From an uncultured Clostridium sp. (GTDB lineage: Bacteria > Bacillota > Clostridia > TANB77 > CAG-508): DNA of 64,000 nucleotides. Below, piece by piece: positions 1 through 18,224 of this stretch. The DNA lies in the NCBI GenBank assembly GCA_964370905.1, contig CAYJKK010000001.1, forward strand, positions 99,749 to 163,748. Direction: 5' to 3'. How positions within the stretch are numbered: the first letter of the stretch is position 1; every line of letters starts with the position of its first letter. The position numbers and the translations under genes are program-made. Under the pieces are notes generated by a model. That model was not told where the DNA came from. It saw only the letters and a list, made by a program, of their open reading frames with translations, and ran no database searches.

Positions 1-385
1 AAAATATGCTTCTTTTACTATTTTGTAAAACTCCATATTTATATTCTGCTAAGCATGCATTTTTAGCATCATTCCTAACAATTACTGGTAACTTATATTT
101 TTTTTCTAACACACTTGCTATATCATATTTATCTAATTTTAAGTTTATAGTTTTTTCTATAACACCTTCTTTTGTTATACCAGGAATTGAAATACCTATT
201 TTTTTTATTTCATATATTTCTTTGTATTCATTTATCTTTATATTTACATATTCTTCTATTGTGTTTATTATATCTTTTTTCATTTCTTCACTAAATGTTA
301 ATTCTTCTTTTTTTAATATCTCACCACTATTATTTATTATCCCTATTGCTATATGGCTTCCACCTATATCTATTCCAATATTCAT
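1..385 (-). CDS. ROK-family sugar kinase (glucokinase-like), N-terminal part; 3' end lies beyond the window start
   Basis: Not in the ORF track because it is open at the window edge. My translation from ATG 385-383 reads MNIGIDIGGSHIAIGIINNSGEILKK...PVIVRNDAKNACLAEYKYG, showing the DxGG phosphate-1 and NDAN-like ROK blocks. GGAGG at 390-394. Confidence 0.7.
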   Translation of the reverse strand, partial: MNIGIDIGGSHIAIGIINNSGEILKKEELTFSEEMKKDIINTIEEYVNIKINEYKEIYEIKKIGISIPGITKEGVIEKTINLKLDKYDIASVLEKKYKLPVIVRNDAKNACLAEYKYGVLQNSKRSIF

Positions 386-1889: not shown

Positions 1890-1912
1890 ATTTTTCTCCT
1901 TTCTTTTTTATT

Positions 1913-3019
1913 TTAAATTCCTTGTTTTTCTTGTTTTATTTTTAATTGCATTATTGTTCTATTTAATACTTCTATATTTTTTTCTTCAACTTGTGATTTA
2001 GCTTGATCTAATGTAATTATATCTTTAACAAATAGTTCAGCTAAAGAATTAATAAGTCCTATACTTCCTTTTTCTGAATTACTTTGTATTGCATCTTCTA
2101 TTTCAGAAACACTTAATTTTTCTTTTCTAATTAATCCTGAAACTATACTATCTATTACCATTACTTCTGGAACTAATGTTAATTTTCCATTTCTTCCTTT
2201 TAATAGTCTTTGTGAAACTACTAATTTTAATAATGTTGATAATAGGTATTTTATTGTTGCTTGATCTCTTACTTCATAGAAATTTATCATCCTATCTATT
2301 GTTTCTGCACAAGATTTTGTGTGCAGTGTTCCTATAACTAAATGCCCTGATTCTGCCATTTCTATTGCAGCTTCCATTGTTTCTTTGTCCCTGATTTCTC
2401 CTATTACTAATATATCACAATCTTCTCTTAAAGAGTTTTTTACACCATCACTAAATGTAAGTGAATCTTTTCCTATTCCAATTTCTTTTTGCACAATTAA
2501 AGATTTTTTTGATGAATGCTTAAATTCTATTGGATTTTCTAATGTTAATATTTTTTTGTTTTGTGTTTCATTTATATGATTTATTAATGCATTTAAAGTT
2601 GTACTTTTACCTGAATTTGTTTTACCAGTTACTAACATTACTCCTTGTGGTTGATAAGTCATTCTTCTTACAATATCTGGTACACCTAATTCTTCATATT
2701 TAGGTAAATCATTTTTTATTAAACGCATTGTACAAATTGGAATATCGTCTGCAGATGATATATTTACCCTAAAACGTATATCACCATATTCATATGACAT
2801 ATCGATTTTTTTAGTATCTGTATATGTTTTGTCTTTATCAATATTTCCTTTTATTAATTCATCATATACTTCCATCATATCTTCAATAGTCAAAACTTTA
2901 GTATTTTCAACTGGTATTAAATCTCTTGAAATTCTTAACATTGGTTTATTTTCACATATCAAATGAACATCTGATGCATCTTTTTTTATAGCTTCATCTA
3001 AAATAGCTTGTAAATTCAT
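1913..3019 (-). CDS. pilT: Type IV pilus retraction ATPase PilT
   Basis: 368 aa with Walker A GKTNSGKST. It has PilT-class length and lacks the N-terminal GSPII domain seen in the neighbouring PilB. AGGAGG RBS. Confidence 0.8.
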   Translation of the reverse strand: MNLQAILDEAIKKDASDVHLICENKPMLRISRDLIPVENTKVLTIEDMMEVYDELIKGNIDKDKTYTDTKKIDMSYEYGDIRFRVNISSADDIPICTMRLIKNDLPKYEELGVPDIVRRMTYQPQGVMLVTGKTNSGKSTTLNALINHINETQNKKILTLENPIEFKHSSKKSLIVQKEIGIGKDSLTFSDGVKNSLREDCDILVIGEIRDKETMEAAIEMAESGHLVIGTLHTKSCAETIDRMINFYEVRDQATIKYLLSTLLKLVVSQRLLKGRNGKLTLVPEVMVIDSIVSGLIRKEKLSVSEIEDAIQSNSEKGSIGLINSLAELFVKDIITLDQAKSQVEEKNIEVLNRTIMQLKIKQEKQGI

Positions 3020-3046
3020 TATTTTTCCTCCTAAATTTAAACTTAA

Positions 3047-4678
3047 TTAATATAATAAAAGTTTTTTGTTTATTTCTTCTAATGTTGTTTCTCCTAAAAC
3101 TACTTTTCTAACACCATCTACTATTAGTGGTTTATATGTTCCTTCTAAAGCGTGTTTTCTAATTTCGATACTTGATTTTCCATTCATTATGTCTTCTTTT
3201 ATTTCTTCTGTTATATCTAATACTTCAAAAACACCCATTCTATCAAAATATCCTGTGTTATTACATCTTTTACATCCTACTGCATTATGCGTTTTTTCAA
3301 GCTTACCGAAATCATAACTATATCTTTCACCTAATTTTACAATTACATCTTTTTCTTCTGATGAAAATTTTCTTTCTTCTTTACAATTTGGGCATAATTT
3401 TCTAACTAATCTTTGTGATATTGTAGTTGCGAGTGTACTTGCTATATCATAATCTGATATTCCCATTTTTCTAAGTCTTGTTATTACTTCAATTGAATCT
3501 ATTGTGTGTATTGTAGATAATACATAATGACCAGTTTGTCCTGCTTGTACTGCTATTTCTCCTGTTTCTTTATCACGAATTTCTCCTACTAATACTATAT
3601 CTGGATCTTGTCTTAAAACTGTTCTTAGTGCACCTGAAAATGATGATTTATTATCTATTTCTATTTGATTTAATCCATTTATTCTTATTTCTACTGGGTC
3701 TTCAATAGTTGTTATATTTATTTCATTGCTATTTAAGTAATCCATAATACTATATAGTGTAGAAGTTTTACCTTCTCCTGTTGGTGCTGCTATAATTGTC
3801 ATACTATTTCTTTTATTAATACTTTTAGCTAATTCTTCTTTTTCTCCTGGAAATCCTAAGTCAAATATATTTTTTATATTTGAATTTTTCTTTAAAAGTC
3901 TTAACACAAATTTTTCTCCATGTACATTTGGTTGTGAAGATACACGTATGTTATATTCGTCATATAGAAGAATTCTACCATCTTGCGATTCTTGTTTTTC
4001 ATGATGCATATTTGATATTGCTTTTAATCTTCCTATTACTTGACTTTGTTTTTCTTTATTAATATTTGCTGCTGTAAATAACTCTCCATCTATTCTGTAT
4101 CTAACTCTTACAGTATTAATCATAGGCTCTATATGAATATCACTTGCACGTCTTTCCATTGCTGTTTTTATTATTGTATCTACCAAGGTTGTTACCGTGT
4201 CTGATTTACTAGTTGCTATTTCTTCTGTACTTGCTCCTTCATATGAGCTAATTATTCTATCTACATCTGATTCAAAAGTTATATATGGTTCCATTATTAA
4301 ACCTTTATTTAATAATAAAAGTTTTACTGTTTCCATATTTTTATTACCAACTGTATCTGCAAAACACACTTTAATTTTACCTGCTGATACTTCAAAAGGT
4401 ATAACTTTGTTTTTCTTAGCTATGTCTAATGGTATATAATCTGGTATATTAACTCTAATTGATGATGAATTTAATAGGATTCCTTTTGTACCAAAAATTT
4501 CTCCTATTGCTTCTATTAAAATATTAGGATCACAAGCATCTAATATATATAATATGTCTCCTATTTTTTTATTTGAATTTTCTTTTTGATATGCTAATGC
4601 ATTTTCAATGTCTTTTTCTGTTACTATACCTCTTTTTACTAATTCAACACCTAATGGTTGTCTTCTTCTTACATCCAT
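3047..4678 (-). CDS. pilB: Type IV pilus extension ATPase PilB (GspE family)
   Basis: 543 aa with Walker A APTGEGKTS and the tetracysteine motif CPNC...CKRC typical of GspE/PilB. Confidence 0.85.
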   Translation of the reverse strand: MDVRRRQPLGVELVKRGIVTEKDIENALAYQKENSNKKIGDILYILDACDPNILIEAIGEIFGTKGILLNSSSIRVNIPDYIPLDIAKKNKVIPFEVSAGKIKVCFADTVGNKNMETVKLLLLNKGLIMEPYITFESDVDRIISSYEGASTEEIATSKSDTVTTLVDTIIKTAMERRASDIHIEPMINTVRVRYRIDGELFTAANINKEKQSQVIGRLKAISNMHHEKQESQDGRILLYDEYNIRVSSQPNVHGEKFVLRLLKKNSNIKNIFDLGFPGEKEELAKSINKRNSMTIIAAPTGEGKTSTLYSIMDYLNSNEINITTIEDPVEIRINGLNQIEIDNKSSFSGALRTVLRQDPDIVLVGEIRDKETGEIAVQAGQTGHYVLSTIHTIDSIEVITRLRKMGISDYDIASTLATTISQRLVRKLCPNCKEERKFSSEEKDVIVKLGERYSYDFGKLEKTHNAVGCKRCNNTGYFDRMGVFEVLDITEEIKEDIMNGKSSIEIRKHALEGTYKPLIVDGVRKVVLGETTLEEINKKLLLY

Positions 4679-4693
4679 AATCTAATTCCTTTC

Positions 4694-5143
4694 CTAATTA
4701 TTTATTATATAATCATTTTCCCATTCTTTATCACCAGATTCCATATCTAGTCTTACTGATATTTTATTTTTTTCGCTATTTACTTCAAAATCACAACTTT
4801 TTACTCCACCTACAATTTTTGCAGTATTTCTATATATAGCATTATTTTCACTCATAAATGTATATTGAATTCCATTACTAAATACTATATAGTCATTTTG
4901 ATGTGTTCCATCTTGAGCTGGAAGTGTTCCACTTTCTAGTATTTCTATATCCTCATAGTTTATTTCTTCAGTAAAATAACTATTAAATCTAGTATATTCG
5001 ACTAGTGGATCTATCTGACTTAGTGTAAGATCTATATTTTGATAAAAATATGAACTCACAATAGTTATTACAGTTATTACAATTAATAAAGTTGTTATAT
5101 ATACAATTAAAGATATTAATGTTACACCTTTTTCTGATTTCAT
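4694..5143 (-). CDS. Minor pilin / pseudopilin (prepilin-type N-terminal domain)
   Basis: 149 aa. Class III signal MKSEKG|VTLISLIVYITTLLIV followed by a hydrophobic helix. Confidence 0.7.
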   Translation of the reverse strand: MKSEKGVTLISLIVYITTLLIVITVITIVSSYFYQNIDLTLSQIDPLVEYTRFNSYFTEEINYEDIEILESGTLPAQDGTHQNDYIVFSNGIQYTFMSENNAIYRNTAKIVGGVKSCDFEVNSEKNKISVRLDMESGDKEWENDYIINN

Positions 5144-5161
5144 ATTTATTCCTTTCTTAAC

Positions 5162-5602
5162 TTATTTTGTTACAACTGTTGATAATTCAACACTTTGGTC
5201 TTCACCATTTAATCTATATTCAACTGTTACTGTTATTATTTTCATATATTCTTCATCTGCTGATGAATTAACTTGATTATAATCTTTAACTTCTTTAGTT
5301 AAAAAATATCCTGTTTCTTCATTACTAGAATCTAAGATAGGAATTGAATTTATCTCACTACCACTTTCGTCTTGTACGTATTCATTAGCAATTATCCCAT
5401 TATATTTTGATATATTATCTGACTTAACTTTTTCAATTTCACTAATAGCATGATACATAGCTTCTGTTTGTCTTTCCATTACTTTTATTGAGTTTGTATA
5501 TTCAGATGATAGTACTGCTATTATTGCTACAAATATAAATAGTGATAAAATTGCAACTATTGTATCTATACCTGTAAAACCTTTCTCACTTCTAAGTATC
5601 AT
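5162..5602 (-). CDS. Minor pilin / pseudopilin (prepilin-type N-terminal domain)
   Basis: 146 aa. SEKG|FTGIDTIVAILSLFIFV with Asp at +5. Confidence 0.65.
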   Translation of the reverse strand: MILRSEKGFTGIDTIVAILSLFIFVAIIAVLSSEYTNSIKVMERQTEAMYHAISEIEKVKSDNISKYNGIIANEYVQDESGSEINSIPILDSSNEETGYFLTKEVKDYNQVNSSADEEYMKIITVTVEYRLNGEDQSVELSTVVTK

Positions 5603-5621
5603 ATTATTTCCTTTCTAAGTA

Positions 5622-6404
5622 TTAATTGTTCATAATAATTAAAACAATTACATATGTTATTATATTTGATATACCAATATATAACGGATAGTTTATATAT
5701 TTAGTATTGTCATTTTTTCTTAATTTATAAATTATATTATAAATTGCTATTATTAAAAATGTTGATATTATCGTGTATAGTGTTACTAGCTCTCCTGTAA
5801 ATATTGCAAGTATTACTAACATTAATAATATTTCTGTTATTTTATTACTTTTAGCTTGTTTTTTTAAGATTATTGTATTTATCATTAATATAATTATATA
5901 TATTGCTAGATACATGCCATATCTATATATATTCGTTTCTTCTAATAAACATAAATATAACATATATATTAATGATATTATTATTCCATACATATTTACT
6001 GATTTTTCTATATTTAATTTAGTTTTAGCTATTCCTATTGTAATTATTAGGTATGTAAAATATAGCGCAAGCATCAATGCTTCTAATGATTTTAATATAG
6101 TTACATTTTCTATATTTATTCCCATAAAATATGCAACTAACACAAATATTAATCCTGAAAATATTTCTAATGCTAAATATCTTGGACTAATTGATTTTTT
6201 GCAATGTCTACATTTTCCTCTTAATAATATATAGCTAAATACTGGAAATAAATCTAGTATTCCTAATTTTTCTTTACAATTAGGACAATATGAATGTTTT
6301 TTTATAATATCTTGTTTTAATGGTATTCTATGTATTGCAAGTGAATAAAAACTTCCAAATAATGAACCCATTATAAATATAATTATATATAAAAGTATAT
6401 CCAT
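5622..6404 (-). CDS. pilD: Prepilin peptidase PilD (A24 family)
   Basis: 260 aa polytopic protein with an N-terminal CPNC...CRHC zinc-finger pair, sitting in the pil cluster. Confidence 0.8.
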   Translation of the reverse strand: MDILLYIIIFIMGSLFGSFYSLAIHRIPLKQDIIKKHSYCPNCKEKLGILDLFPVFSYILLRGKCRHCKKSISPRYLALEIFSGLIFVLVAYFMGINIENVTILKSLEALMLALYFTYLIITIGIAKTKLNIEKSVNMYGIIISLIYMLYLCLLEETNIYRYGMYLAIYIIILMINTIILKKQAKSNKITEILLMLVILAIFTGELVTLYTIISTFLIIAIYNIIYKLRKNDNTKYINYPLYIGISNIITYVIVLIIMNN

Positions 6405-6514
6405 TTTTCTTCCTTTTCTTATTTGTTTAATTTACTTTAATTTTTTCCTTTTAATTATTATAAGAATTAATTCAAATATAAATATTTTTTTATATAATTT
6501 CTATATTTATATTT

Positions 6515-6547
6515 AAAGCCATACACACTTAGTGTGCGTATGGCTTT
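6515..6547 (-). terminator. Hairpin directly downstream of pilA (partial terminator/attenuator)
   Basis: aaagccatacacac...gtgtgcgtatggcttt forms a ~14-bp stem with one mismatch. The U-tract is poor on the minus strand, so read-through to pilD is likely. Confidence 0.5.
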
Positions 6548-6603
6548 TATTTATTTAATTATATAAATATACTATTTAATAATTTATTTATATTAACTTT
6601 TAA

Positions 6604-7110
6604 TTAATCTTTATCTGCTGGGCTCATTGTATCACCACTTGTGCTAACATTGATTGTTCCTACTAATCCTGATACATCTTCACCTTTATAATCTGCTACT
6701 CCTGTAATAGTTATAGTAGCAATATCAGATATAGATTGAGCACCTGAAGCAGATGAATCAAGTTTTAAGTTAGCTATAGTAACTTCTGTTGTTCCGTCTG
6801 ATTCTAACATTCTTAAGTTAGCAACATCATCAGTTGTAACATCATTATCTGTTCCATTTAAATTGTCAATTGCTCTTTCTAAATCAGTTACACTTAATCT
6901 ATTTGATAAAACTGATGAATATACAGCATATAATTCTAAGTTAATCATTTCTTCAGCTTCAGCTACAACTGTTTCTTTAGAAGCTTCACCTGCTCTAGTT
7001 AATATACCATTTTCACCTAATAATAATCCAATAGATACTGCAGCTAAAATTAATAATACTATAATTGTGATTACTAATGAAATTAATGTAATACCTTTTT
7101 GATTTCTCAT
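6604..7110 (-). CDS. pilA: Major type IV pilin
   Basis: 168 aa. MRNQKG|ITLISLVITIIVLLILAAVSIGLLLGENGILTRA. Strong RBS AAAGGAGGAAAAAG, and the gene is followed by a hairpin. Confidence 0.8.
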   Translation of the reverse strand: MRNQKGITLISLVITIIVLLILAAVSIGLLLGENGILTRAGEASKETVVAEAEEMINLELYAVYSSVLSNRLSVTDLERAIDNLNGTDNDVTTDDVANLRMLESDGTTEVTIANLKLDSSASGAQSISDIATITITGVADYKGEDVSGLVGTINVSTSGDTMSPADKD

Positions 7111-7187
7111 GTGTTCTTTTTCCTCCTTTTCTTTAGAATTTTTTATTGACTTATATTTATTTTTTATAAATATAATGTTAATAACTA

Positions 7188-7586
7188 TTATTTTGTACCT
7201 TCATCATCAAAATATGATCCACCTGATGATGAACTTCCACTTGAAGATCCATTATTTGTTGAACCCGAATTTCCATCCGGATTTTCAGTTGGAGCTTCTT
7301 CTACATAAGTAGAAAATGGATTTGCTTTCCCTGATGTATAATCTGATGAAATTTGGTAATTTCTTAAATCTGATGAATCTACTGAATATGTCATAACAAT
7401 TGTTTCTTTATCAACTGTCATTTCAGCTAATTCCTCTTTTACATCTTCTGGAGTTGTATATGCAACTTGTGTCGGTAGTGTTTTTGTCATTGGGAAGTAA
7501 TCATAAAGTAATATTCCTAGTACAACTAAGATTGCAAGAAATAATAACATTAATATTATAATTTCTTTTAAAACTGATTTTACCAT
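7188..7586 (-). CDS. Hypothetical single-pass membrane protein with a Ser/Gly-rich tail
   Basis: 132 aa with an N-terminal TM (IIILMLLFLAILVVLGILLY) and a C-terminal GNSGSTNNGSSSGSSSSGGS stretch. AAGGAG RBS. Lies between pilO and pilA. Confidence 0.55.
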   Translation of the reverse strand: MVKSVLKEIIILMLLFLAILVVLGILLYDYFPMTKTLPTQVAYTTPEDVKEELAEMTVDKETIVMTYSVDSSDLRNYQISSDYTSGKANPFSTYVEEAPTENPDGNSGSTNNGSSSGSSSSGGSYFDDEGTK

Positions 7587-7610
7587 TGCTTATCTCCTTT
7601 TAAATTTAAA

Positions 7611-8297
7611 TTATTGTTTTGTAGTATCATCTTCTGTGTTTTCTTCGGTATTTTCATTATTAGTTTCTTCTGTATTTTGATTTGCATTGTTTGTTGATAT
7701 AATTTCATCTGTTATTCCATTAATTGCTATATCATTACAAGCAAATGTGGCTTGTAACACATCAACTGATGAACCTGGCTTTAATGAAAAGTTCTCTATT
7801 TTAAATCCTAAAGTTTCATCATTTTCTATTCTAGATATAAAATCTATTATAGCTATATAACTTCCTGAAATTGTGAAATTTAAATCATATGCATTTTCAA
7901 TTATTGAATTTCCTCTTAATACATCCATTTTCATTATTGTATTTTCACCTGTTGCATAATTACCAATTTTTACTAATAAATTTTCAAAATCGTATTCTTC
8001 TAATACTCCTATTGGAGCACCATTTTCATCTGTACCTAAAAGTATTAATTCTTCATACTCTGTCTTTTGTTTTTCTAATTCTTTTATATTATTTTCTAAT
8101 AGTGTTACAGCTTCTTTATAATCTTTTTGAGCTAACTTTGCTGCTTCTTGTATTTTTGTATCTAATACTTCATTTTCAGCTTGTATATTTTGGAAACTCA
8201 AAATCTTAAGTTCACCGAATTCCATTCCTTGTAAGATTACAAATACAGAAAGTGCTAATAATAACCCTATTAATATTAATAGTAATAATTTTTTCAT
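7611..8297 (-). CDS. pilO: PilO-like pilus alignment protein
   Basis: 228 aa with an N-terminal TM, a coiled coil and a C-terminal domain. Its start overlaps the pilMN stop. The call rests on position and architecture only. Confidence 0.5.
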   Translation of the reverse strand: MKKLLLLILIGLLLALSVFVILQGMEFGELKILSFQNIQAENEVLDTKIQEAAKLAQKDYKEAVTLLENNIKELEKQKTEYEELILLGTDENGAPIGVLEEYDFENLLVKIGNYATGENTIMKMDVLRGNSIIENAYDLNFTISGSYIAIIDFISRIENDETLGFKIENFSLKPGSSVDVLQATFACNDIAINGITDEIISTNNANQNTEETNNENTEENTEDDTTKQ

Positions 8298-9916
8298 GGC
8301 AACTCTCCTTCTATTTTAATTGTAACTATTCCTCCATCTTTTTGTCCTGATGTTGAAATTACGTTAGTTAAGATAACATCTGTTTTTATTTCTGCAATAA
8401 AGAACCCTAATTGTTCATATTTATCTGATTGAGCATATATTACAACTTTTTTTCCTGTTGTATTTTCTATTGAAGTAATTTGAACATTTTGTGGAATTAC
8501 AGCCATTACTTGATTTAATAAATTTGGAATTGCATTTCTGCTTTCATTTGTTTCCTGTATTTTTTCATTTGTTTTTTGTATATTTTGTATTAAATTAGTA
8601 TATTCACTTGTTTTTTCTTGTATTTTTTTATCATCATCAGTTACTTTTCCTATTTCTGACAATGTTTCTACAATAAACATATCTGCTTCGTTTTGCTTTT
8701 CAAATGTATAGTATGTTAATATACCAGAAAATACTGAGAATATAACTGCGAACATAAGCATTGTATTTGATACACGAAGTAATGCACTTTCTGTTCTATC
8801 AAATTTCTGTCCTAGATCCCAAGTCAAAAATCCACCTTGATTTTTTTGTTCTTCTTTTGTTTTTCCTGGATTTATTTCTATTTTAAACCATCCTGGAACT
8901 TTTTCTGCAAAAGATTGATGTTTGAAGTTAAGACCTTGAACACCTTCACCTAAATATGTTAACGCAACTGATAAAGCTGAGTTAACCTCTACGTAATCTT
9001 TCATATTTATATCTCTTATATTTTCTAAGAAATGTGGTTTTAATATTTCACAGTCTACTTCTGGTAAATATTCTTGGAAATATAAGTCAACATTATTAAT
9101 TAATGCAGCTGTTCCTGTAATATATACTTTGCCAATATCTTGTACAGACTTGTTAATTGATTTTTTAACATTTCCTACTATTTTATATAGTGTTGGCATT
9201 ATATTTTCTAAATACTGTATATGTTCATTTTCTTGTAATTCCATACCATTAGATGTATATATTGTTGTGTTTTTTGCAATTTCATATGCTTTTGAATATG
9301 AATTTTCATTTAAGTTTATTTCATCTAAGAACTCTTTAGCCCCACCATCTATTTTTTCAATATCATAAATTTTACCGCCTAATACAGTTGTTACTGTTGT
9401 TTCTTGTTCCATATTTACAATCATATAATTTTCTACATCATCTACTTTAGTTAGTGATGTTATAGCTATTGGTAATGGTACAATACCTTTTAATTCATAA
9501 TTTGCTAAATTTTGTGTTGTTTTATTTTGATTAATTTTATTTGATGAAACATGTATAACTCTTAATTTATCTTTATCTACTAGGTCATTTACTATTGCAT
9601 ATCTTGTTTCAAATACATTTGGATTTATATTTTTTTCATTATTGTAATATGCAAATTCCGTACTAATTGCTGCTACTAAATCTTTTTTATTTAATAAACT
9701 AGACATTTCAAAATACATATATGCTTCTTCAGATAAATTAACACTTATTGGTGTTTTTTGGCTATATGTTTCTTGGATTACTTGATTTATACCATCTTGT
9801 ATGTTTTCATAGAACTTAGTCCCAAAAGATTCAACACGTATATTTGATTGTTCTTTTGAAACTTTTGCGTATTTAATTAAATTTTCTTCAATATACAGTC
9901 CTAAACATTTCGACAT
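8294..9916 (-). CDS. pilMN: PilM-PilN fusion protein
   Basis: 540 aa. An actin-like ATPase-fold N-terminal ~340 aa is followed by a TM (LMFAVIFSVFSGILTYYTF) and a PilN-like coiled-coil/periplasmic part. First gene of the cluster, matching the fusion known in clostridial pil loci. Confidence 0.7.
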   Translation of the reverse strand: MSKCLGLYIEENLIKYAKVSKEQSNIRVESFGTKFYENIQDGINQVIQETYSQKTPISVNLSEEAYMYFEMSSLLNKKDLVAAISTEFAYYNNEKNINPNVFETRYAIVNDLVDKDKLRVIHVSSNKINQNKTTQNLANYELKGIVPLPIAITSLTKVDDVENYMIVNMEQETTVTTVLGGKIYDIEKIDGGAKEFLDEINLNENSYSKAYEIAKNTTIYTSNGMELQENEHIQYLENIMPTLYKIVGNVKKSINKSVQDIGKVYITGTAALINNVDLYFQEYLPEVDCEILKPHFLENIRDINMKDYVEVNSALSVALTYLGEGVQGLNFKHQSFAEKVPGWFKIEINPGKTKEEQKNQGGFLTWDLGQKFDRTESALLRVSNTMLMFAVIFSVFSGILTYYTFEKQNEADMFIVETLSEIGKVTDDDKKIQEKTSEYTNLIQNIQKTNEKIQETNESRNAIPNLLNQVMAVIPQNVQITSIENTTGKKVVIYAQSDKYEQLGFFIAEIKTDVILTNVISTSGQKDGGIVTIKIEGELP

Positions 9917-10055: not shown

Positions 10056-10071
10056 TCACTTTAACACAAAC

Positions 10072-10104
10072 GTAATATAATTGTAATATAATTGTAATAT
10101 TTGT
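10072..10104. repeat. Tandem 11-bp repeats GTAATATAATT x2 plus a degenerate third copy
   Basis: Direct reading. 10072-10100 is the exact reverse complement of 17766-17794. The array lies just upstream of the -35 of the pil promoter. Confidence 0.95.
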
Positions 10105-13343: not shown

Positions 13344-13736
13344 ATGGAATTAGATGTATCTGAAATCTTTGAATTTTCATCTCTTATTAAAGCTTTTGTT
13401 GTTGGTGGAATAATATGTATTATTGGACAAATATTAATTGATAAAACAAAACTAACTCCTGCTAAAATTTTAGTCCTATTCGTAACAGTTGGAGCTATAT
13501 TAGGCGGGTTAGGCATATATGATTATCTAGTTGAATTTGGAGGTGCTGGTGCAACTATACCTCTTACTGGTTTTGGAAGTAGTCTTGCACATGGTGCTAT
13601 TGATGCTGTTAAAGAAAAAGGACTTATCGGAGCATTTACTGGTGGAATTTCAGCAACTGCTGGTGGAATAGGTGCTGCAATATTTTTTGGATATATAGCA
13701 TCTTTAATTTCAAAACCTAAAATAAAAAAAGAATAA
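13344..13736 (+). CDS. spoVAE: Stage V sporulation protein AE (SpoVAEb-type)
   Basis: In-frame ATG at 13344 preceded by GGAGAA. FVVGGIICIIGQ...PLTGFGSS is paralogous to SpoVAC. The track's start at 13284 would overlap spoVAD. Confidence 0.8.
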   Translation: MELDVSEIFEFSSLIKAFVVGGIICIIGQILIDKTKLTPAKILVLFVTVGAILGGLGIYDYLVEFGGAGATIPLTGFGSSLAHGAIDAVKEKGLIGAFTGGISATAGGIGAAIFFGYIASLISKPKIKKE

Positions 13737-13760
13737 CAACAGAAAGAAAAAATCATTAGT

Positions 13761-14906
13761 CTAATATGCTAATGATTTTTTTCTTCTACGAATAACTGGA
13801 GCTATTTCGAATTCTATTTCAAAACATTCAAATCTTCCTGTTTGATTATCTTCTAAATAATCTAAATATATATCTAATTCATCAACTGTTTTACAAGCTG
13901 AAATTATCGCTGGATGCAAATTATATGAGAATAATAATTCCATACCTAAATCAAAAGCAAAGACTAATGATTTATTTTCTTTTTTTCTTGCTAATCTAAA
14001 AGCTTCTTTAAATCGCATTACTGGTGCATTTTTATAATAATCTATTGATTTCATATATTTTTTTGCAATTACACTTTCAACACATGTATATTTATTTGGA
14101 TGTTTTCTCATTTCTCTTTCTATGTCTTTATATAAGAATGGTAGTACAACTTTTCCTGAAGTTTCTGATATAAGAAGTGTGTTTTCTTTATAATCTTCTA
14201 AACCTATCAAATTAGGCTCTTCTATGTTCTCTTCTTTACTATTTTGAATTTTAGTATCTATGACTTTTTCTTGCATTTCAGTTTCTTGTATAACATTTTT
14301 TATAGGCATTTCTATGTTAGATTCTTCTCTTAAATCTATTTTGTACAAATCAGATACATCTTGGACTTCTGTTTCCATATCTAATTTTTGTTCTTCTTCT
14401 ACTTCTATTTTTTCTGTAATTTCCTCTTTTGTATAAACTTCATCTATATTATTTATTTTAGAACTAGACTCTTGAACATTATATATATTTGAAAAACCTG
14501 CTAAATCATTTAGGCATTCTTGTATGCGTATTGTGTTAGTAGTTACACTTTTTAAAATTTCTATATATTTTTCATTTAGATCATTTAAATATGTTTCGAA
14601 ATTTTGATCGTTTAAATCATATTTTACTTGATTGTACAAATTGATTATATCCGTCAAATTTACAACATTATTATTTACACATTCAATAGCATTTTTAGCT
14701 TCTTCTAAAACATTAACCATTTTTTCTATATTGTTTTCTTCTATATTTTCATTAGAATCAACAAATTTTTGCATATATACTAAAAACACTTCTTTTTGTC
14801 TTTCTTGAGATCCAAGTACGCAATCTAAATATTCTTTTTCTTTTTCCAAATTTTCAATTATTTTTCCAAATTGTATACATCCATTATCTTTTGTTATAAC
14901 TATCAT
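13761..14906 (-). CDS. Hypothetical acidic coiled-coil protein; last gene of the SipW/TasA-like operon
   Basis: 381 aa. The N-terminal half is Glu/Asn-rich and the conserved-looking C-terminal ~140 aa contain no motif I recognise. Confidence 0.5.
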   Translation of the reverse strand: MIVITKDNGCIQFGKIIENLEKEKEYLDCVLGSQERQKEVFLVYMQKFVDSNENIEENNIEKMVNVLEEAKNAIECVNNNVVNLTDIINLYNQVKYDLNDQNFETYLNDLNEKYIEILKSVTTNTIRIQECLNDLAGFSNIYNVQESSSKINNIDEVYTKEEITEKIEVEEEQKLDMETEVQDVSDLYKIDLREESNIEMPIKNVIQETEMQEKVIDTKIQNSKEENIEEPNLIGLEDYKENTLLISETSGKVVLPFLYKDIEREMRKHPNKYTCVESVIAKKYMKSIDYYKNAPVMRFKEAFRLARKKENKSLVFAFDLGMELLFSYNLHPAIISACKTVDELDIYLDYLEDNQTGRFECFEIEFEIAPVIRRRKKSLAY

Positions 14907-14927
14907 AACTTCTCCTTATTTTTTAGA

Positions 14928-15554
14928 TTATTCATTACAAAGGTAATATTCATTTTGTTCATTTCTTTTTTTATTTTCGTAGGCTATTCTCTTTATATTC
15001 CTTTCAGTTTTCTTTTTTTTCATATTCCCAGTATATGCTATATATACATATGCAAATAATAATAACACAATAATAACTATCCCATTTTGTAACCATAACA
15101 CTGCATATCCTAAAAATGGTATTGCTCCTATTACTTTACCTTCGATTGCAGAGCCTTTAACAACCCCTTGATCTTCTGCGTTATTATTATCACCTTTTGT
15201 TTTATATTCTACTTGACTATTATTTTCCATTACTTCTGTTATTCTATGTGTTACAACTGTTTCTCCCTGTCTAAAAGATATGGTATCTCCTACATCATAT
15301 TTTTGATCAGTACTTTTTACAATTGCTATATCGCCTATATTATAGGTTGGTTCCATACTTCCTGACACTATTACATATGTTTTATATCCTAAAAAATCTG
15401 GTGTTTTATCTGGACTTATTATAGCTTGCAAAATTAATGATATATTATATACAATAAGTGGTATTACAATTATATATACCATCAATTGCAATCTATTCAT
15501 AATTCTTTTACTTTTAGCTTTTCTCTTAACAATCGCTTCATTTGTATATAACAT
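14928..15554 (-). CDS. sipW: SipW-type (S26B, ER/archaeal-type) signal peptidase I
   Basis: 208 aa with VSGSMEP, THRI (His in place of the LepB Lys) and KGDNN boxes, plus N- and C-terminal TM segments. Confidence 0.8.
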   Translation of the reverse strand: MLYTNEAIVKRKAKSKRIMNRLQLMVYIIVIPLIVYNISLILQAIISPDKTPDFLGYKTYVIVSGSMEPTYNIGDIAIVKSTDQKYDVGDTISFRQGETVVTHRITEVMENNSQVEYKTKGDNNNAEDQGVVKGSAIEGKVIGAIPFLGYAVLWLQNGIVIIVLLLFAYVYIAYTGNMKKKKTERNIKRIAYENKKRNEQNEYYLCNE

Positions 15555-15576
15555 TTTATTCTCCTTTTCATTTTAA

Positions 15577-16233
15577 TTATATTGAATTTGTAGCTTCTAT
15601 GACCATCTCTAACATATATTGTTGGTCTTCTACTTTAGATCCAACTAATGTATCTGCTTCATCACTATTTTCCCAATACCATTCCACAGTATATTTAGTT
15701 ATAGAATCTTCTGCTACAATAATATTTTCAACATCTAATTCTGATATATCTAAATAGTCATTTTCATTTCCCCTTATATATACATTATCCATTTTTAATC
15801 TATATTTCATATTAATATCATTTGAAGTAGTTTCTATAAATTTTATATGATATTCAATCTCTTGTCCTGTAACATTTTCTACTATTACATCATATTTTCC
15901 GTATGACATAGGAGCTATTATCTTTTCATTATCAAATTTCACATTTTGAAACATATTTATTTGTTCTTTTTTTTCAATATCTATATCTCCACTTGTAACT
16001 TCTATATATCTAGTATTTTCAACACCTGATAAAAATTCTTCTCGAGTTGCTCCTATTGTTCCTATCCTAAATGCTAATATAGTTACTAAAATTAGAAAAC
16101 AAGTTAAAAAAGCTCCTAATATTGACTTAATTTTCCTATTATGTTTTTTATCCTTTAAAAATTCTTCTAATGTATGTATTTTTTGTTTATCATTAGTTTC
16201 TTGATTTTGTTTTTGCATATTTTCTTTATTCAT
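15577..16233 (-). CDS. TasA/camelysin-like secreted protein, paralogue 2 (putative minor/accessory subunit)
   Basis: 218 aa with a signal-anchor. It shares blocks with the 223-aa neighbour: APMSYGKYDVIVENV vs APGVQGEFEIEVENL, TVEWYWE vs TIYWRWP, DTLVG vs DTLIG. Confidence 0.5.
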   Translation of the reverse strand: MNKENMQKQNQETNDKQKIHTLEEFLKDKKHNRKIKSILGAFLTCFLILVTILAFRIGTIGATREEFLSGVENTRYIEVTSGDIDIEKKEQINMFQNVKFDNEKIIAPMSYGKYDVIVENVTGQEIEYHIKFIETTSNDINMKYRLKMDNVYIRGNENDYLDISELDVENIIVAEDSITKYTVEWYWENSDEADTLVGSKVEDQQYMLEMVIEATNSI

Positions 16234-16300
16234 TAATCAATCCTCCTAATATTTTCACTTAAACATACTTCTTTAATATATTTAAGTCAAAATATCTATA

Positions 16301-16336
16301 ATATAGGTTCTAATTATTACTAAATAGAACCTATAT
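16301..16336 (-). terminator. 12-bp perfect hairpin just after the 223-aa gene
   Basis: atataggttcta-12 nt-tagaacctatat, starting 10 nt downstream of the stop. Confidence 0.55.
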
Positions 16337-16345
16337 TAATTTTTA

Positions 16346-17017
16346 CTAATCAACTTGTGTTACTGTTATATCTGTTGTTATTTGTATTTTAAGGTCATCA
16401 GTATCATCTGCAGTTGTTGCTGCTCCTGCTGCTGCTGCAATACCTATTAAAGTATCATTTGCATCTGCCGCTGCATCTGCTCCTATTGGCCATCTCCAAT
16501 AAATTGTTGAAGATGTTGATGTAGCACCACTATTTACCACAACTGGTGTAGTTATATCTGTTAAAGCTGCAGACCAATTTGTTCCATCAGCACTATACTG
16601 AATTGGAACAGTAGCTCCTACTGGGAAGTTTACTCCTTCAGATTCAAAAGAAACTGTATATTGTGCAGTTACATCTGATAAGTTTTCTACTTCTATTTCA
16701 AATTCACCTTGTACACCAGGTGCTATCATTCCAGCAGTTACATCTAATTCACCTGTAGTACTTTCAGTACCGTCAGCTGTATCAGTATCATTTATTGTAT
16801 CAAATAAATTAAATGATATTGAATCAGCCGGTGCTGTAGTTATATCTGTACCATTAACTTCAATTGACCATTTAGCAACTGTAGCTGAATCTACCCCACT
16901 TACTGTAGAAGTATATCTAGCATAAGTTCCAGAAACTAATATTAAGGCAATTATTGTTAAAAGTAATAATAAAGCTAATAATTTTTTATTATTTTTCTTT
17001 TCATTTCTTGCTTGCAT
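16346..17017 (-). CDS. TasA/camelysin-like secreted protein with a SipW-cognate-type signal peptide (putative major subunit)
   Basis: 223 aa. MQARNEKKNNKKLLALLLLLTIIALILVSGTYARYTS has a K-rich n-region, an L-rich core and a GTYA-Y-T motif like TasA/CalY signals. The mature part is Thr/Ala/Asp-rich. GGAGGTG RBS. Confidence 0.6.
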   Translation of the reverse strand: MQARNEKKNNKKLLALLLLLTIIALILVSGTYARYTSTVSGVDSATVAKWSIEVNGTDITTAPADSISFNLFDTINDTDTADGTESTTGELDVTAGMIAPGVQGEFEIEVENLSDVTAQYTVSFESEGVNFPVGATVPIQYSADGTNWSAALTDITTPVVVNSGATSTSSTIYWRWPIGADAAADANDTLIGIAAAAGAATTADDTDDLKIQITTDITVTQVD

Positions 17018-17079
17018 TTTTTCACCTCCTTTTAGTTAAAATATATCTTTAATTTAAAAAACTTTTTAATGTTTTGAAA

Positions 17080-17679
17080 TTATTTTTTATTCAATAATTC
17101 CTCTTTTTCTTTTTTTAATTTTCTAACTTCCTCTTCCAATTCTAATTCTTTTTCTGTTGTTTCTTTAACATATTTTAAACTTTCTTTATTTTCATAGAAT
17201 TGAATTAATACTAATAATAGTATTGGTATAGATAATGCAACTACCATTCCTGTTGGTGTTTGTAAGAACATACCTAAATTCCCAAGACCAACTATTTTTG
17301 TTTGATATAAACCTTCTATATTATTCATAGTGATATATCCTTCATCATTTTGATCATTATTATCACCTTTTGTAATATATTGTCTTATTCCACTTGCTTC
17401 ATTTATTTCTACAATTCTATGAGTTATAACTGTGTCTTCAATTCTATATGCAATTATTTCTCCTACATCTAATTCTTCTTCTTTAACTTCATAAACAATT
17501 ACTAAATCTCCAACTGCAATATCTGTTTCCATAGATTCCGATAATACAATAAATGGTTTCCATCCAAAAAATGATGGTACTTCATTAGGATTTACTGCTG
17601 AATCTATTAAAATAACCGCATTTACAAATAAAATTGGAACTAGTAAAATTATAACTATTATTCTTAATATATTTTTCAT
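17080..17679 (-). CDS. sipW: SipW-type (S26B) signal peptidase I, second copy
   Basis: 199 aa with LSESMET, THRI and KGDNND boxes and a C-terminal TM followed by a coiled-coil tail. Confidence 0.75.
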   Translation of the reverse strand: MKNILRIIVIILLVPILFVNAVILIDSAVNPNEVPSFFGWKPFIVLSESMETDIAVGDLVIVYEVKEEELDVGEIIAYRIEDTVITHRIVEINEASGIRQYITKGDNNDQNDEGYITMNNIEGLYQTKIVGLGNLGMFLQTPTGMVVALSIPILLLVLIQFYENKESLKYVKETTEKELELEEEVRKLKKEKEELLNKK

Positions 17680-17761
17680 TCTGTTTCCCCTATTTCTTAT
17701 AAACTATTAAATATTATTATGTATTCATAATATACCATATAGTAAAAAAAAAGTACATTAA

Positions 17762-17794
17762 AATTATATTACAATTATATTACAATTATATTAC
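17762..17794. repeat. Tandem 11-bp repeats AATTATATTAC x3 (perfect)
   Basis: Direct reading. This is the reverse complement of the 10072-10104 array. It lies 83-115 nt upstream of the first SipW start codon. Confidence 0.95.
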
Positions 17795-17823
17795 AAAATA
17801 TGACATAAGTACTTATAACGCAA

Positions 17824-17855
17824 CAAAAAAAGCTATTTACAAATGTAATATAGCT
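17824..17855 (-). terminator. Rho-independent terminator of infC-rpmI-rplT
   Basis: The agctatttac/gtaatatagct stem is followed on the minus strand by a run of 7 T. Confidence 0.7.
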
Positions 17856-17876
17856 CTTTTATAATAATATTTAAAT

Positions 17877-18224
17877 TTATTTTTTTGACATTTCAACTAT
17901 TTCAGTAAATGCTTTTGGGTCATTTACAGCTATTTCAGCTAACATTTTTCTATTAACTGTAATATTTGCTTTTTTCATTCCAGCTATCATTCTACTGTAT
18001 GTAGTTCCATTCATTCTAGCTGCAGCGTTTATTCTTGCTATCCATAATTTTCTGAAATCACTTTTTTTGTCTTTTCTTCCTATATATGCATATCTTAAAG
18101 ATTTCATAACTGCTTGATTAGCATTTCTAAATCTATAACTTTTTGCTCCATAATATCCTTTAGCTTGTTTTAATATTTTTTTATGTCTTGCTTTTGTTGT
18201 TCTTGCTGTTTTTACTCTTGCCAT
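17877..18224 (-). CDS. rplT: 50S ribosomal protein L20
   Basis: 115 aa. [28 protein letters not shown]. Confidence 0.95.

What the first reader, a model, noticed from the sequence alone, without database searches (positions are those of the whole stretch)
13761..17679. Five-gene operon with two SipW-type peptidases bracketing two TasA/camelysin-like paralogues, a possible uncharacterised secreted-fibre system
**Seen in the sequence**
- The minus-strand gene order is sipW(199 aa)-223 aa-218 aa-sipW(208 aa)-381 aa, with short gaps.
- Both peptidases carry the S26B Ser/His signature (S-M-E, THRI, GDNN) rather than the LepB Ser/Lys signature. A normal lepB sits elsewhere at 50123.
- The 223-aa protein starts with a Lys-rich n-region, a Leu-rich core and SGTYARYTS. 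This resembles the SipW-cognate signals of TasA/CalY.
- The two middle proteins are paralogues. They share APG/APM..G.[FY][ED][IV].VEN[LV], [IV][YE]W[RY]W and DTL[IV]G blocks.
- The 223-aa gene has the strongest RBS and is followed by a 12-bp perfect hairpin. That pattern fits a highly expressed major subunit.

**Established context**
- B. subtilis tapA-sipW-tasA builds donor-strand-exchanged TasA fibres using one SipW.

**Inference**
- This locus differs from the B. subtilis one. It has two peptidases, no TapA-like gene, and an extra 381-aa acidic coiled-coil protein with an unrecognised C-terminal domain.
- It lies 4 kb from a type IV pilus cluster and shares an upstream repeat with it.
- It may therefore encode a distinct two-subunit fibre whose subunits each have a dedicated peptidase.
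Basis: partly seen in the sequence, partly recalled or inferred. Interest (0 to 1): 0.75.

Follow-up and report, generated by a model that had tools for sequence, protein, structure and literature searches.

The report
Two-peptidase secreted fibre operon in Clostridia
This operon belongs to a very large, unnamed family in gut and soil Firmicutes that probably builds a TasA-like surface fibre, using two specialised SipW-type signal peptidases, an abundant major subunit and a rarer end subunit.

Summary
In detail: five minus-strand genes, sipW1, A (223 aa), B (218 aa), sipW2 and a 381-aa protein.

- **Peptidases.** Both pass the archaeal-type signal peptidase model and keep the Ser/His residues.
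- **A and B.** They are weak but real paralogues.
- **Link to TasA.** A and B are not members of the TasA/camelysin Pfam family. Pfam, NCBIfam and profile-profile tests are negative. The link rests on a TasA-like cleavage motif, collinear motifs, SipW linkage and a weak top fold hit to the TasA fibre.
- **Two peptidases are the norm.** In about 80 loci from Bacillota, sipW-A-B-sipW(-A') is the usual order. The upstream and downstream peptidases are separate ancient classes.
- **Family size.** The A family has 8,415 clusters and no name.
- **Expression layout.** A is followed by a hairpin in 90% of loci, while B, sipW2 and A' are tightly packed.
- **B.** It lacks A's N-terminal motif. Long B proteins carry adhesin domains ahead of a C-terminal core, like an end subunit.
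- **381-aa protein.** It is a conserved partner of unknown fold.

Best reading: a new variant of SipW-dependent fibre. Polymerisation itself is untested.

The parts
17752..17795 (-). Three tandem copies of an 11-nt unit (GTAATATAATT), about 80-125 nt upstream of the sipW1 start codon. Candidate regulator-binding site in the operon's own promoter region.
   Evidence: Exact copies occur at only two places in 64 kb. About 0.05 matches are expected by chance and 0 of 100 shuffles reach the count.
17080..17679 (-). sipW1: upstream-class archaeal/ER-type signal peptidase I (199 aa), with Ser49/His87 and a charged C-terminal tail.
   Evidence: TIGR02228 scores 98.6 bits against a cutoff of 51.85. Ser and His are conserved in 68/70 upstream-class members. 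The nearest neighbours from other loci are upstream-class.
16346..17017 (-). A: candidate major fibre subunit (223 aa). It has a short basic n-region, a hydrophobic core, a predicted cleavage site TYA33|R34 and a conserved mature N-terminus (YTS...ATVAKWSIEV), followed by a beta-sandwich core.
   Evidence: 145 homologues, invariant motifs; AF2 pLDDT 81.6; top fold hit is the TasA fibre; cleavage motif aligns with TasA GGGTWA|AF; 8,415 clusters.
16299..16338 (-). Stem-loop in the 112-nt A-to-B spacer. Likely a partial terminator or an mRNA 3' stabiliser that sets an excess of A over the downstream genes.
   Evidence: 14-bp stem, -19.6 kcal/mol, z = -4.5; across the family the A-to-B spacer has a median length of 110 nt and a median MFE of -33.5, and 90% of loci are at or below -12 kcal/mol.
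15577..16233 (-). B: paralogue of A (218 aa) with a cytoplasmic tail of about 35-40 aa, a strong TM segment and no A-type cleavage/N-terminal motif. Candidate end subunit (tip or membrane-proximal base).
   Evidence: 24% identity to A; 43% to the L001 orthologue; 0 of 72 B proteins carry the A motif; long B proteins carry Cadherin-like, CarboxypepD_reg, Big_2 and SdrD_B domains; conserved core at the extreme C-terminus of long B proteins.
14928..15554 (-). sipW2: downstream-class archaeal/ER-type signal peptidase I (208 aa), starting 22 nt after B.
   Evidence: TIGR02228 scores 98.6 bits. It is 31% identical to sipW1. Ser and His are conserved in 61/61 downstream-class members. In 59/61 cases the nearest neighbour from another locus is downstream-class.
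13761..14906 (-). 381-aa partner with no signal peptide or TM segment. It has a three-helix bundle (13-136), a disordered acidic linker (143-224) and a compact alpha/beta C-terminal domain (241-370) with no recognisable fold.
   Evidence: no family or PDB match; 177 unnamed homologues; 54% identity of the C-terminal domain to the L002 neighbour; AF2, C-terminal domain pLDDT about 95; no fold match; always at the 3' end of the fibre operon.
10071..10103 (+). Second site of the same 11-nt tandem repeat, in inverted orientation. It lies just upstream of a TTGACT -35-like hexamer, ahead of the 540-aa first gene of the type IV pilus cluster.

Best explanation
The operon most likely encodes a SipW-dependent extracellular fibre or pilus. 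It resembles the TasA-superfamily fibres but belongs to a separate, unnamed sequence family.

Proposed steps:
1. A own promoter, carrying three 11-nt repeats, drives sipW1 and A.
2. A hairpin after A lets only some transcripts continue into B, sipW2 and the 381-aa gene. This makes A abundant and the other products scarce.
3. A is exported by Sec and cut after Ala33 by a SipW-type peptidase.
4. The conserved new N-terminus of A then inserts as a beta-strand into the next subunit, so that A polymerises (donor-strand complementation, as in TasA).
5. B has the same core but no A-type N-terminal segment, so it sits at one end of the fibre. It is either a tip (in relatives it carries adhesin domains) or a membrane-anchored base.
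6. The two peptidases are ancient specialised classes. sipW1 probably processes A, and sipW2 probably processes the downstream products.
7. The 381-aa cytoplasmic protein is a lineage-specific accessory or regulatory factor.

Shown here: gene content, peptidase class, paralogy, motifs, synteny, hairpin conservation and B's domain layout.

Inferred: cleavage site, polymerisation, the position of B, the division of labour between the peptidases, and the role of the 381-aa protein.
For: - Peptidases. Both are TIGR02228-type with catalytic Ser/His.
- Cleavage motif. A's 'VSGTYA-RY' is the only region that hhalign aligns to TasA-family 'GGGTWA-AF', where TasA is cut.
- Collinear motifs. PG-x10-N-x-[GS] and a terminal '..TQ' strand fall in register with TasA. 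The same PG...N block aligns to AbpX (E 0.09).
- Fold. The AF2 model of A (pLDDT 81.6) has the TasA fibre 8aur_A as its best PDB match (probability 0.96, E 5.9e-3). Donor-strand pilins CfaB, a FimD-usher complex chain and PapA follow.
- Transitive link. Two of 142 A/A' family members hit PF12389 at E down to 9.8e-5.
- Synteny. sipW-A-B-sipW(-A') recurs in about 80 loci from 195 matching species genomes.
- Peptidase classes. The two positions hold separate classes: 68/70 and 59/61 same-class nearest neighbours.
- Expression layout. A hairpin follows A in 90% of loci, while B, sipW2 and A' are separated by a median of 9 nt.
- B. No B protein has A's N-terminal motif (0/72). Long B proteins carry adhesin-type domains ahead of a C-terminal core.
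- Precedents. TasA assembles by donor-strand exchange (PMC9674648). C. perfringens has a sipW-bsaA-bsaB-bsaC operon (PMC7395162 and PMC11580942). Dedicated TIGR02228 peptidases occur in AbpX loci.
Against: - No significant sequence or profile link to TasA/camelysin, to SipW-cognate signal models or to any solved structure.
- The Foldseek match to TasA is weak (TM 0.36, and nothing at E <= 1e-3).
- Beta-sandwich proteins are common and need not polymerise.
- No multimer model could be run, so donor-strand insertion is untested.
- Eleven loci have one peptidase with both A and B, so the second peptidase is not strictly required for B.
- Whether B's TM segment is cleaved is unknown.
- The 381-aa protein has no assignable function.
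Confidence: 0.6

Rival explanations
1. A and B are SipW-processed secreted or cell-surface proteins that do not polymerise. They could be monomeric adhesins or a surface coat. The hairpin would then only tune their relative amounts.
For: - No significant homology to any proven fibre subunit.
- The fold match is weak.
- B relatives and some A relatives carry adhesin or enzyme domains, which also fits monomeric surface display.
Against: - A's most conserved part is the extended mature N-terminus (Y35, A48 and W50 invariant). That is hard to explain for a monomeric globular protein and is expected for a donor strand.
- The family has three paralogue classes in fixed order and with different expression.
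- B has a tip-adhesin-like domain order.
- The best fold hits are donor-strand fibres.
Confidence: 0.2
2. The system is a fibre, but the two peptidases do not each serve one subunit. sipW1 processes all subunits.
For: - Eleven loci have a single peptidase with both A and B.
- In many relatives sipW2 is immediately followed by A', which is absent here.
- B lacks any recognisable cleavage motif.
Against: - sipW2 keeps catalytic Ser/His in 61/61 cases.
- It is retained in at least 17 loci without A', including this window.
- The two classes have been kept separate over wide taxonomic distances, which suggests distinct substrates.
Confidence: 0.3
3. The products are spore-associated surface or coat components rather than a matrix or pilus of vegetative cells, echoing TasA's first description as spore coat-associated protein CotN.
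For: - The locus abuts spoVAC-D-E.
- In L043 the 381-aa homologue is co-oriented with spoVA.
- L001 and L084 have sporulation genes nearby.
- TasA was first described as spore-associated.
Against: - The family is common in MAGs labelled Tenericutes, Mollicutes or Bacilli. These lineages are not known to sporulate (general knowledge).
- Sporulation neighbours are not conserved across loci.
- No sporulation promoter was identified.
Confidence: 0.08

Closest known systems
Bacillus subtilis tapA-sipW-tasA (TasA fibres; Pfam PF12389; PDB 8AUR, 5OF1)
   Same: - A dedicated archaeal/ER-type SipW peptidase is encoded next to its substrates.
- The substrate signal ends in G-T-[WY]-A followed by an aromatic residue at +2.
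- The core is a beta-sandwich with a PG-x10-N-x-[GS] block and a terminal '..TQ' strand.
- The best structural match for A is the TasA fibre.
   Different: - No PF12389 match, and hhalign is insignificant.
- Two peptidases rather than one.
- No TapA. The accessory subunit B is instead a paralogue of the major subunit.
- A conserved hairpin follows the major subunit gene.
- There is a 381-aa partner of unknown fold.
Clostridium perfringens sipW-bsaA-bsaB-bsaC (Obana 2020, PMC7395162; Kivimaki 2025 preprint, PMC11580942)
   Same: - A clostridial operon that starts with sipW, followed by two paralogous TasA-like proteins.
- The first, BsaA, is the polymer. The second, BsaB, is a minor non-polymerising partner.
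- There is a functional link to type IV pilus genes. Here the link is a shared promoter repeat with the nearby type IV pilus cluster.
   Different: - The bsa operon has one peptidase.
- The bsa operon also encodes a VWA protein (BsaC) and a two-component system.
- BsaA locks subunits with an Asn-Lys isopeptide bond. That triad could not be mapped here, and the window's A has Arg, not Lys, at the first mature residue.
Archaeal TasA-superfamily fibres with dedicated TIGR02228 peptidases (AbpX, AbpA, Tafi; bioRxiv 10.64898/2026.01.04.697558, PMC9245690, PMC12337348)
   Same: - Loci combine a major subunit, predicted tip or minor subunits, sometimes a membrane anchor, and a TIGR02228 peptidase.
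- AbpX chains are the best sequence-profile hits of the A family among solved structures. They align the PG...N block.
   Different: - The hit is below significance (E 0.09).
- AbpX-linked peptidases are reported to have ten TM helices. The ones here are small two-TM enzymes of 199 and 208 aa.
- This family is confined to Bacillota in the loci seen here.
Chaperone-usher pili of Gram-negative bacteria (FimA/FimH, PapA/PapG, CfaB)
   Same: [quoted passage not shown]
- A terminal two-domain adhesin has a variable domain ahead of a C-terminal pilin-like domain and lacks its own donor strand.
- CfaB, a FimD-usher complex chain and PapA rank just behind TasA in the fold search.
   Different: - There is no chaperone or usher, and the bacteria have a single membrane.
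- Processing is by SipW-type peptidases.
- This is an analogy of design, not evidence of common descent.

Membership tests
Archaeal/ER-type signal peptidase I (MEROPS S26B; NCBIfam TIGR02228) | Score above the curated cutoff of the family model | tested here: met
   Both peptidases score 98.6 bits against a cutoff of 51.85.
Archaeal/ER-type signal peptidase I (MEROPS S26B; NCBIfam TIGR02228) | Ser/His catalytic residues instead of the Ser/Lys dyad of LepB-type enzymes | tested here: met
   S-M-E and T-H-R-I are present in both. Ser and His are conserved in 68/70 upstream and 61/61 downstream family members. The LepB-type enzyme at 50123 has SMYPT and KRVIA instead.
Bacillus SipW orthologue (NCBIfam NF046067 equivalog) | Score above the equivalog cutoff (190 bits) | tested here: not met
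   Scores are 90.0 and 106.7 bits. They are SipW-like but not Bacillus SipW orthologues.
TasA/camelysin (Pfam PF12389 Peptidase_M73) | Match to the Pfam profile | tested here: not met
   A and B have no hit at E <= 1. None of the 44 close A homologues hit it. Only 2 of 142 A/A' relatives hit it weakly, with a best E of 9.8e-5.
TasA/camelysin (Pfam PF12389 Peptidase_M73) | Profile-profile homology to a TasA-family alignment | tested here: not met
   hhalign gives probability 2.4% and 3.0%. Only the signal/cleavage motif and the last strand align locally.
TasA superfamily (TasA, AbpA, AbpX, Tafi, threads) | Jelly-roll/beta-sandwich subunit fold like TasA | tested here: inconclusive
   The AF2 model is a beta-sandwich. 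Foldseek's top PDB hit is the TasA fibre 8aur_A, but at E 5.9e-3 and TM 0.36, with nothing at E <= 1e-3.
TasA superfamily (TasA, AbpA, AbpX, Tafi, threads) | N-terminal signal cut by a dedicated, adjacently encoded SipW-type peptidase | tested here: inconclusive
   Adjacency to the peptidase genes is met in nearly all of about 80 loci. The cleavage motif aligns with TasA's. Cleavage itself was not tested.
TasA superfamily (TasA, AbpA, AbpX, Tafi, threads) | Polymerisation by donor-strand complementation | not testable with these tools
   No multimer prediction was available. The only support is indirect: an invariant, amphipathic mature N-terminus in A.
SipW-cognate signal and exported-protein models (TIGR04088 and relatives in NCBIfam) | Match to the curated model | tested here: not met
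   A and B have no NCBIfam hit at E <= 1. I did not confirm that TIGR04088 is present in the release searched.
BsaA-type 'exchange and lock' fibres | Asn-Glu-Lys triad forming an intermolecular isopeptide bond | not testable with these tools
   This needs a multimer model or an alignment to BsaA, and neither was available. The window's A has Arg34 where most relatives have Lys.
Type IV pilins | Class III signal with an N-terminal methylation motif | tested here: not met
   A and B have no PF07963 hit. The genuine pilin at 6604-7110 does hit it.
Sortase-assembled Gram-positive pili | C-terminal LPXTG sorting signal and an adjacent sortase | tested here: not met
   A ends in ...ITVTQVD and B ends in ...VIEATNSI. 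No sortase gene is in the operon.

The most novel reading that the evidence does not exclude
This is the first look at a Bacillota-wide class of donor-strand fibre that has not been described (8,415 clusters at 50% identity, no Pfam or NCBIfam model). In this class two anciently diverged SipW peptidases divide the work between an abundant shaft subunit and scarce end subunits. B acts as a modular tip adhesin or cell-wall-spanning base. In this lineage a shared 11-nt repeat co-regulates the fibre with a type IV pilus machine that helps it cross the peptidoglycan. The 381-aa partner carries a new fold.
Probability: 0.3. Interest if true: 0.75.

Novelty: new variant of a known kind. Interest (0 to 1): 0.6.

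Why it matters
Fibres of the TasA type hold biofilms together in Bacillus, C. perfringens and archaea. Surveys based on Pfam PF12389 would miss this family entirely.

The family is very large and common in gut Clostridia, Oscillospiraceae, Lachnospiraceae and uncultured Bacilli. If it does build fibres, many gut and soil anaerobes have an unrecognised surface filament with swappable adhesin modules.

The fixed pair of specialised signal peptidases offers a clean test of substrate selection by SipW-type enzymes. The shared promoter repeat gives a handle on a possible link between type IV pilus machinery and fibre export, as proposed for C. perfringens.

Tried and rejected
- **Family scans.** Pfam, NCBIfam and PHROGs scans of all five proteins named only the peptidases.
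- **PDB by sequence.** Searches with A, the 381-aa protein and profiles A1, A2 and A3 gave nothing significant. The best was AbpX at E 0.09.
- **hhalign against TasA.** The A profile against one TasA sequence, and against two TasA-family profiles, was insignificant.
- **Fold search of the 381-aa model.** PDB and BFVD gave only generic helical bundles and no match for the C-terminal domain.
- **11-nt repeat in other loci.** It was not found in 82 related loci, so its conservation could not be shown.
- **Type IV pilus genes near the operon elsewhere.** None were seen within 6 kb except in L018. Pilus proximity is therefore not a family trait.
- **Source organism.** The exact protein is a singleton from one NCBI contig of 179 kb, and its contig could not be retrieved. 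The genome scan missed the window's own genome because its motif is ARYT, not AKYT.
- **Simple terminator scan.** No sites were found in 13500-18000, because the stems are AT-rich.
- **Ideas considered and dropped.** Type IV pilin and sortase-pilin identities fail on their motifs. I noted a resemblance of 'GKVVLPF' in the 381-aa protein to AbrB-type DNA-binding motifs. I dropped it because there is no Pfam hit and the predicted secondary structure fits only partly.

Full report
**1.

The minus strand carries five genes:

| Gene | Coordinates | Length |
|---|---|---|
| sipW1 | 17080-17679 | 199 aa |
| A | 16346-17017 | 223 aa |
| B | 15577-16233 | 218 aa |
| sipW2 | 14928-15554 | 208 aa |
| 381-aa gene | 13761-14906 | 381 aa |

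- The gaps between genes are 62, 112, 22 and 21 nt.
- Both peptidases pass NCBIfam TIGR02228, archaeal-type signal peptidase I, at 98.6 bits against a cutoff of 51.85. Both fall below the Bacillus SipW equivalog cutoff.
- Both show the SME, THRI and GDNN motifs. They are 31% identical to each other.
- A LepB-type enzyme is at 50123-50758.
- The hairpin after A (16299-16338) has a 14-bp stem, -19.6 kcal/mol and z = -4.5.
- The type IV pilus cluster lies at 546-9916.
- The tandem 11-nt repeat GTAATATAATT occurs only upstream of sipW1 (17752-17795) and, inverted, at 10071-10103. The second site is just ahead of a -35-like hexamer for the first gene of the pilus cluster. About 0.05 matches are expected by chance.

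**2. A and B are not TasA/camelysin by any sequence test**

- A and B match no Pfam or NCBIfam model. This includes Peptidase_M73 and the SipW-cognate families. None of 44 close homologues of A match Peptidase_M73 either.
- Profile searches of the PDB give nothing significant. The best hits are the archaeal bundling pilin AbpX at E 0.09 and 0.48, and they align the 'APG...veN.S.V' block. Broader profiles did no better.
- I took the mature TasA sequence from memory and confirmed it is identical to PDB 8aur_A. I then built a TasA-family alignment in which every member carries PF12389.
- hhalign of the A profile against that alignment is insignificant, at probability 2.4%, or 3.0% with a 250-sequence A profile.
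- The best local alignment is the signal and cleavage motif: VSGTYAKY against GGGTWAAF. The second best is the last strand ending in TQ.
- A permissive full-length alignment puts PG-x10-N-x-[GS] in register in both families.
- By analogy with TasA, which is cut between A27 and A28, A would be cut between A33 and R34. This is an inference.

**3. Fold evidence is weak but points the same way**

- The AF2 model of A has pLDDT 81.6 and pTM 0.67 and is a beta-sandwich.
- Its best PDB match is the TasA fibre 8aur_A (probability 0.96, E 5.9e-3, TM 0.36). Near the top of the list are chains from donor-strand pili: CfaB, a FimD-usher complex and PapA. Nothing reaches E 1e-3.
- Two of 142 A-type relatives match PF12389 weakly, with a best E of 9.8e-5.
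- I therefore treat A and B as working like TasA-superfamily subunits. I do not file them as PF12389 members.

**4. The two-peptidase layout is the norm for a very large family**

- A has 145 unnamed homologues in the word-indexed search.
- In an exhaustive HMMER search of 1.84 billion representatives, 8,415 clusters hit at E <= 1e-3 and 4,148 at E <= 1e-10.
- A genome scan found relatives in 195 species-level genomes. They include Clostridia, Oscillospiraceae, Lachnospiraceae, Peptococcaceae, [Clostridium] asparagiforme, Ca. Formimonas, and MAGs labelled Tenericutes or Bacilli.
- I built HMMs for the four component types and applied them to 83 loci. The usual order is sipW-A-B-sipW-A'. Thirty-two loci have two peptidases, two A-type genes and one B. 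Fourteen have two peptidases, one A and one B. Eleven have only one peptidase with A and B.
- The upstream and downstream peptidases are separate ancient classes. The nearest neighbour from another locus is of the same positional class in 68/70 and 59/61 cases. Mean bit scores are 112 within a class and 71 between classes.
- Both classes keep the catalytic Ser and His.

**5. Expression layout is conserved**

| Spacer | Median gap | Median MFE | Loci at or below -12 kcal/mol |
|---|---|---|---|
| sipW to A | 81 nt | -14.9 kcal/mol | 62% |
| A to B | 110 nt | -33.5 kcal/mol | 90% |
| B to sipW2 | 9 nt | 0 | 4% |
| sipW2 to A' | 9 nt | 0 | 3% |

The layout fits an abundant A and scarce downstream products. 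That reading is an inference.

**6. The subunit classes differ at the N-terminus**

- A has a short basic n-region, a hydrophobic core and then SGT[YF]AKYTS...A.VAKW. The motif is found in 72 of 78 A proteins. Y35, A48 and W50 are invariant.
- A48, W50, I52 and V54 alternate as hydrophobic residues, as in an amphipathic strand (read from the sequence).
- A' has a degenerate form of the same motif.
- B has a cytoplasmic tail of about 30 aa and a stronger TM segment. It never carries the A motif (0 of 72).
- B ranges from 170 to 1,364 aa. Long B proteins carry Cadherin-like, CarboxypepD_reg, Big_2 and SdrD_B domains.
- In every long B the conserved core lies at the extreme C-terminus. The variable domains sit between the TM segment and that core.
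- That is the design of a terminal subunit: a variable module plus an acceptor domain with no donor segment, as in FimH or PapG. Whether B is a distal tip or a membrane-anchored base depends on whether its TM segment is cleaved. I could not test this.

**7. The 381-aa protein is a real partner of unknown function**

- It has 177 unnamed homologues with no Pfam domain.
- Its C-terminal 140 aa are 54% identical to a gene next to the L002 operon.
- It appears in 13 of 83 loci. In three further look-ups that started from its own homologues, it sat at the 3' end of an extended operon, on the opposite strand.
- Those extended operons add A', a protein of about 270 aa and a giant protein of 1,059-1,699 aa.
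- In the closest relative, L043, the gene points the same way as spoVAC-D-E. In this window it is inverted and lies 21 nt after sipW2.
- AF2 gives a three-helix bundle (13-136), a disordered acidic linker (143-224) and a confident alpha/beta domain (241-370, pLDDT about 95).
- No fold match was found in the PDB or BFVD.
- It has no signal peptide or TM segment, so it is probably cytoplasmic. My best guess is an accessory or regulatory factor, held with low confidence.

**8. Comparison with known systems**

- **TasA.** TasA fibres form when mature residues 28-38 insert into the next subunit. TapA is thought to nucleate the fibre, and SipW cuts both proteins (PMC9674648).
- **C. perfringens Bsa.** The sipW-bsaA-bsaB-bsaC operon makes BsaA polymers that depend on SipW. 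BsaB is a minor, non-polymerising paralogue. Export is linked to type IV pilus genes. The authors note that several TasA-like paralogues can share an operon.
- **Archaeal AbpX, AbpA and Tafi.** These loci combine a major subunit, tip or minor subunits, anchors and TIGR02228 peptidases.
- **This locus.** It fits that general plan but differs in five ways: it is a separate sequence family, it has two specialised small peptidases, B is a paralogue of A rather than a TapA-like protein, a conserved hairpin follows A, and it has the 381-aa partner.
- **Literature.** I found no paper describing this family. The iterative search in the Kivimaki preprint may already include members, which I could not check.

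**9. Verdict**

- The best explanation is a SipW-dependent fibre that works like TasA, with A as shaft and B as end subunit (confidence about 0.6). Strand-exchange polymerisation and the division of labour between the peptidases remain inferred.
- Novelty: a new variant of a known kind.
- Interest is moderate to high. The family is very large, unnamed and common in gut anaerobes, and it offers direct tests of SipW specificity and of a link between type IV pili and fibre export.

Noticed in passing
window 10071-10103 and 17752-17795: The same tandem 11-nt unit (GTAATATAATT) sits in both promoter regions, in opposite orientations relative to the downstream genes. One site precedes the fibre operon and the other precedes the type IV pilus cluster. 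The 11-nt period is one helical turn, which fits a response-regulator-type binding site and hints at co-regulation. The repeat was not found in 82 related loci.
   Followed up: partly
L001:12163-14424, L002:12167-13525, L043:1780-3090, L014:1578-2858, L023:9866-11107, L015:2524-4161: Larger proteins (about 410-740 aa) that share a domain with the window's 168-aa type IV pilin (6604-7110) lie close to the fibre operon in several relatives, and next to infC-rpmI-rplT in those where that operon falls within the fetched flanks (E 2e-18 to 7e-9). The link may reflect conserved gene order rather than function.
   Followed up: partly
L002:12212-15793: In one relative the pilin-domain protein (437 aa) is followed by a MutS_I fragment, a bAvd gene and a reverse transcriptase (RVT_1). 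That looks like a diversity-generating retroelement. The orthologue in L001 has a faint FGE-sulfatase (C-type lectin-like) hit, which is the usual fold of a DGR target.
   Followed up: no
L083:7927-14339, L084:7957-14924, L085:8030-14984: In some relatives the operon is extended by a protein of about 160-200 aa (A'), in L084 and L085 by a further protein of about 270 aa, and by a giant protein of 1,059-1,699 aa. One giant protein has Flg_new and DUF285 repeats and the others have no Pfam domain. The homologue of the 381-aa gene then follows on the opposite strand.
   Followed up: partly
Family members in alignment A2 and P0306, P0326, P0337, P0355, P0359, P0382, P0385, P0414: Some proteins have an A-type domain at the N-terminus followed by 300-600 extra residues. 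Single members of A2 carry a GDSL lipase domain (E 3e-23) or a cohesin domain (E 2e-5). This suggests shaft-type subunits that display enzymes or binding modules.
   Followed up: no
window 13761-14906 compared with L043:8330-11453: The 381-aa gene is inverted relative to the closest relative. There it follows spoVAC-spoVAD-spoVAE on the same strand. Here it converges on spoVAE and is packed behind sipW2.
   Followed up: partly
window 17815-17876: An AT-rich hairpin (AGCTAT...ATAGCT) followed by a run of seven T lies just after rplT. It probably terminates the infC-rpmI-rplT operon, so the fibre operon would need its own promoter. The simple terminator scan did not flag it because the stem has few G-C pairs.
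   Followed up: no
window 241-370 of the 381-aa protein (nt 13797-14186): The C-terminal domain has invariant His331 and Cys338 in the motif NLHPAIISAC, plus invariant Arg298, Asp342 and Tyr347 across 66 homologues. This could mark a metal site or an active site. No fold match was found.
   Followed up: no
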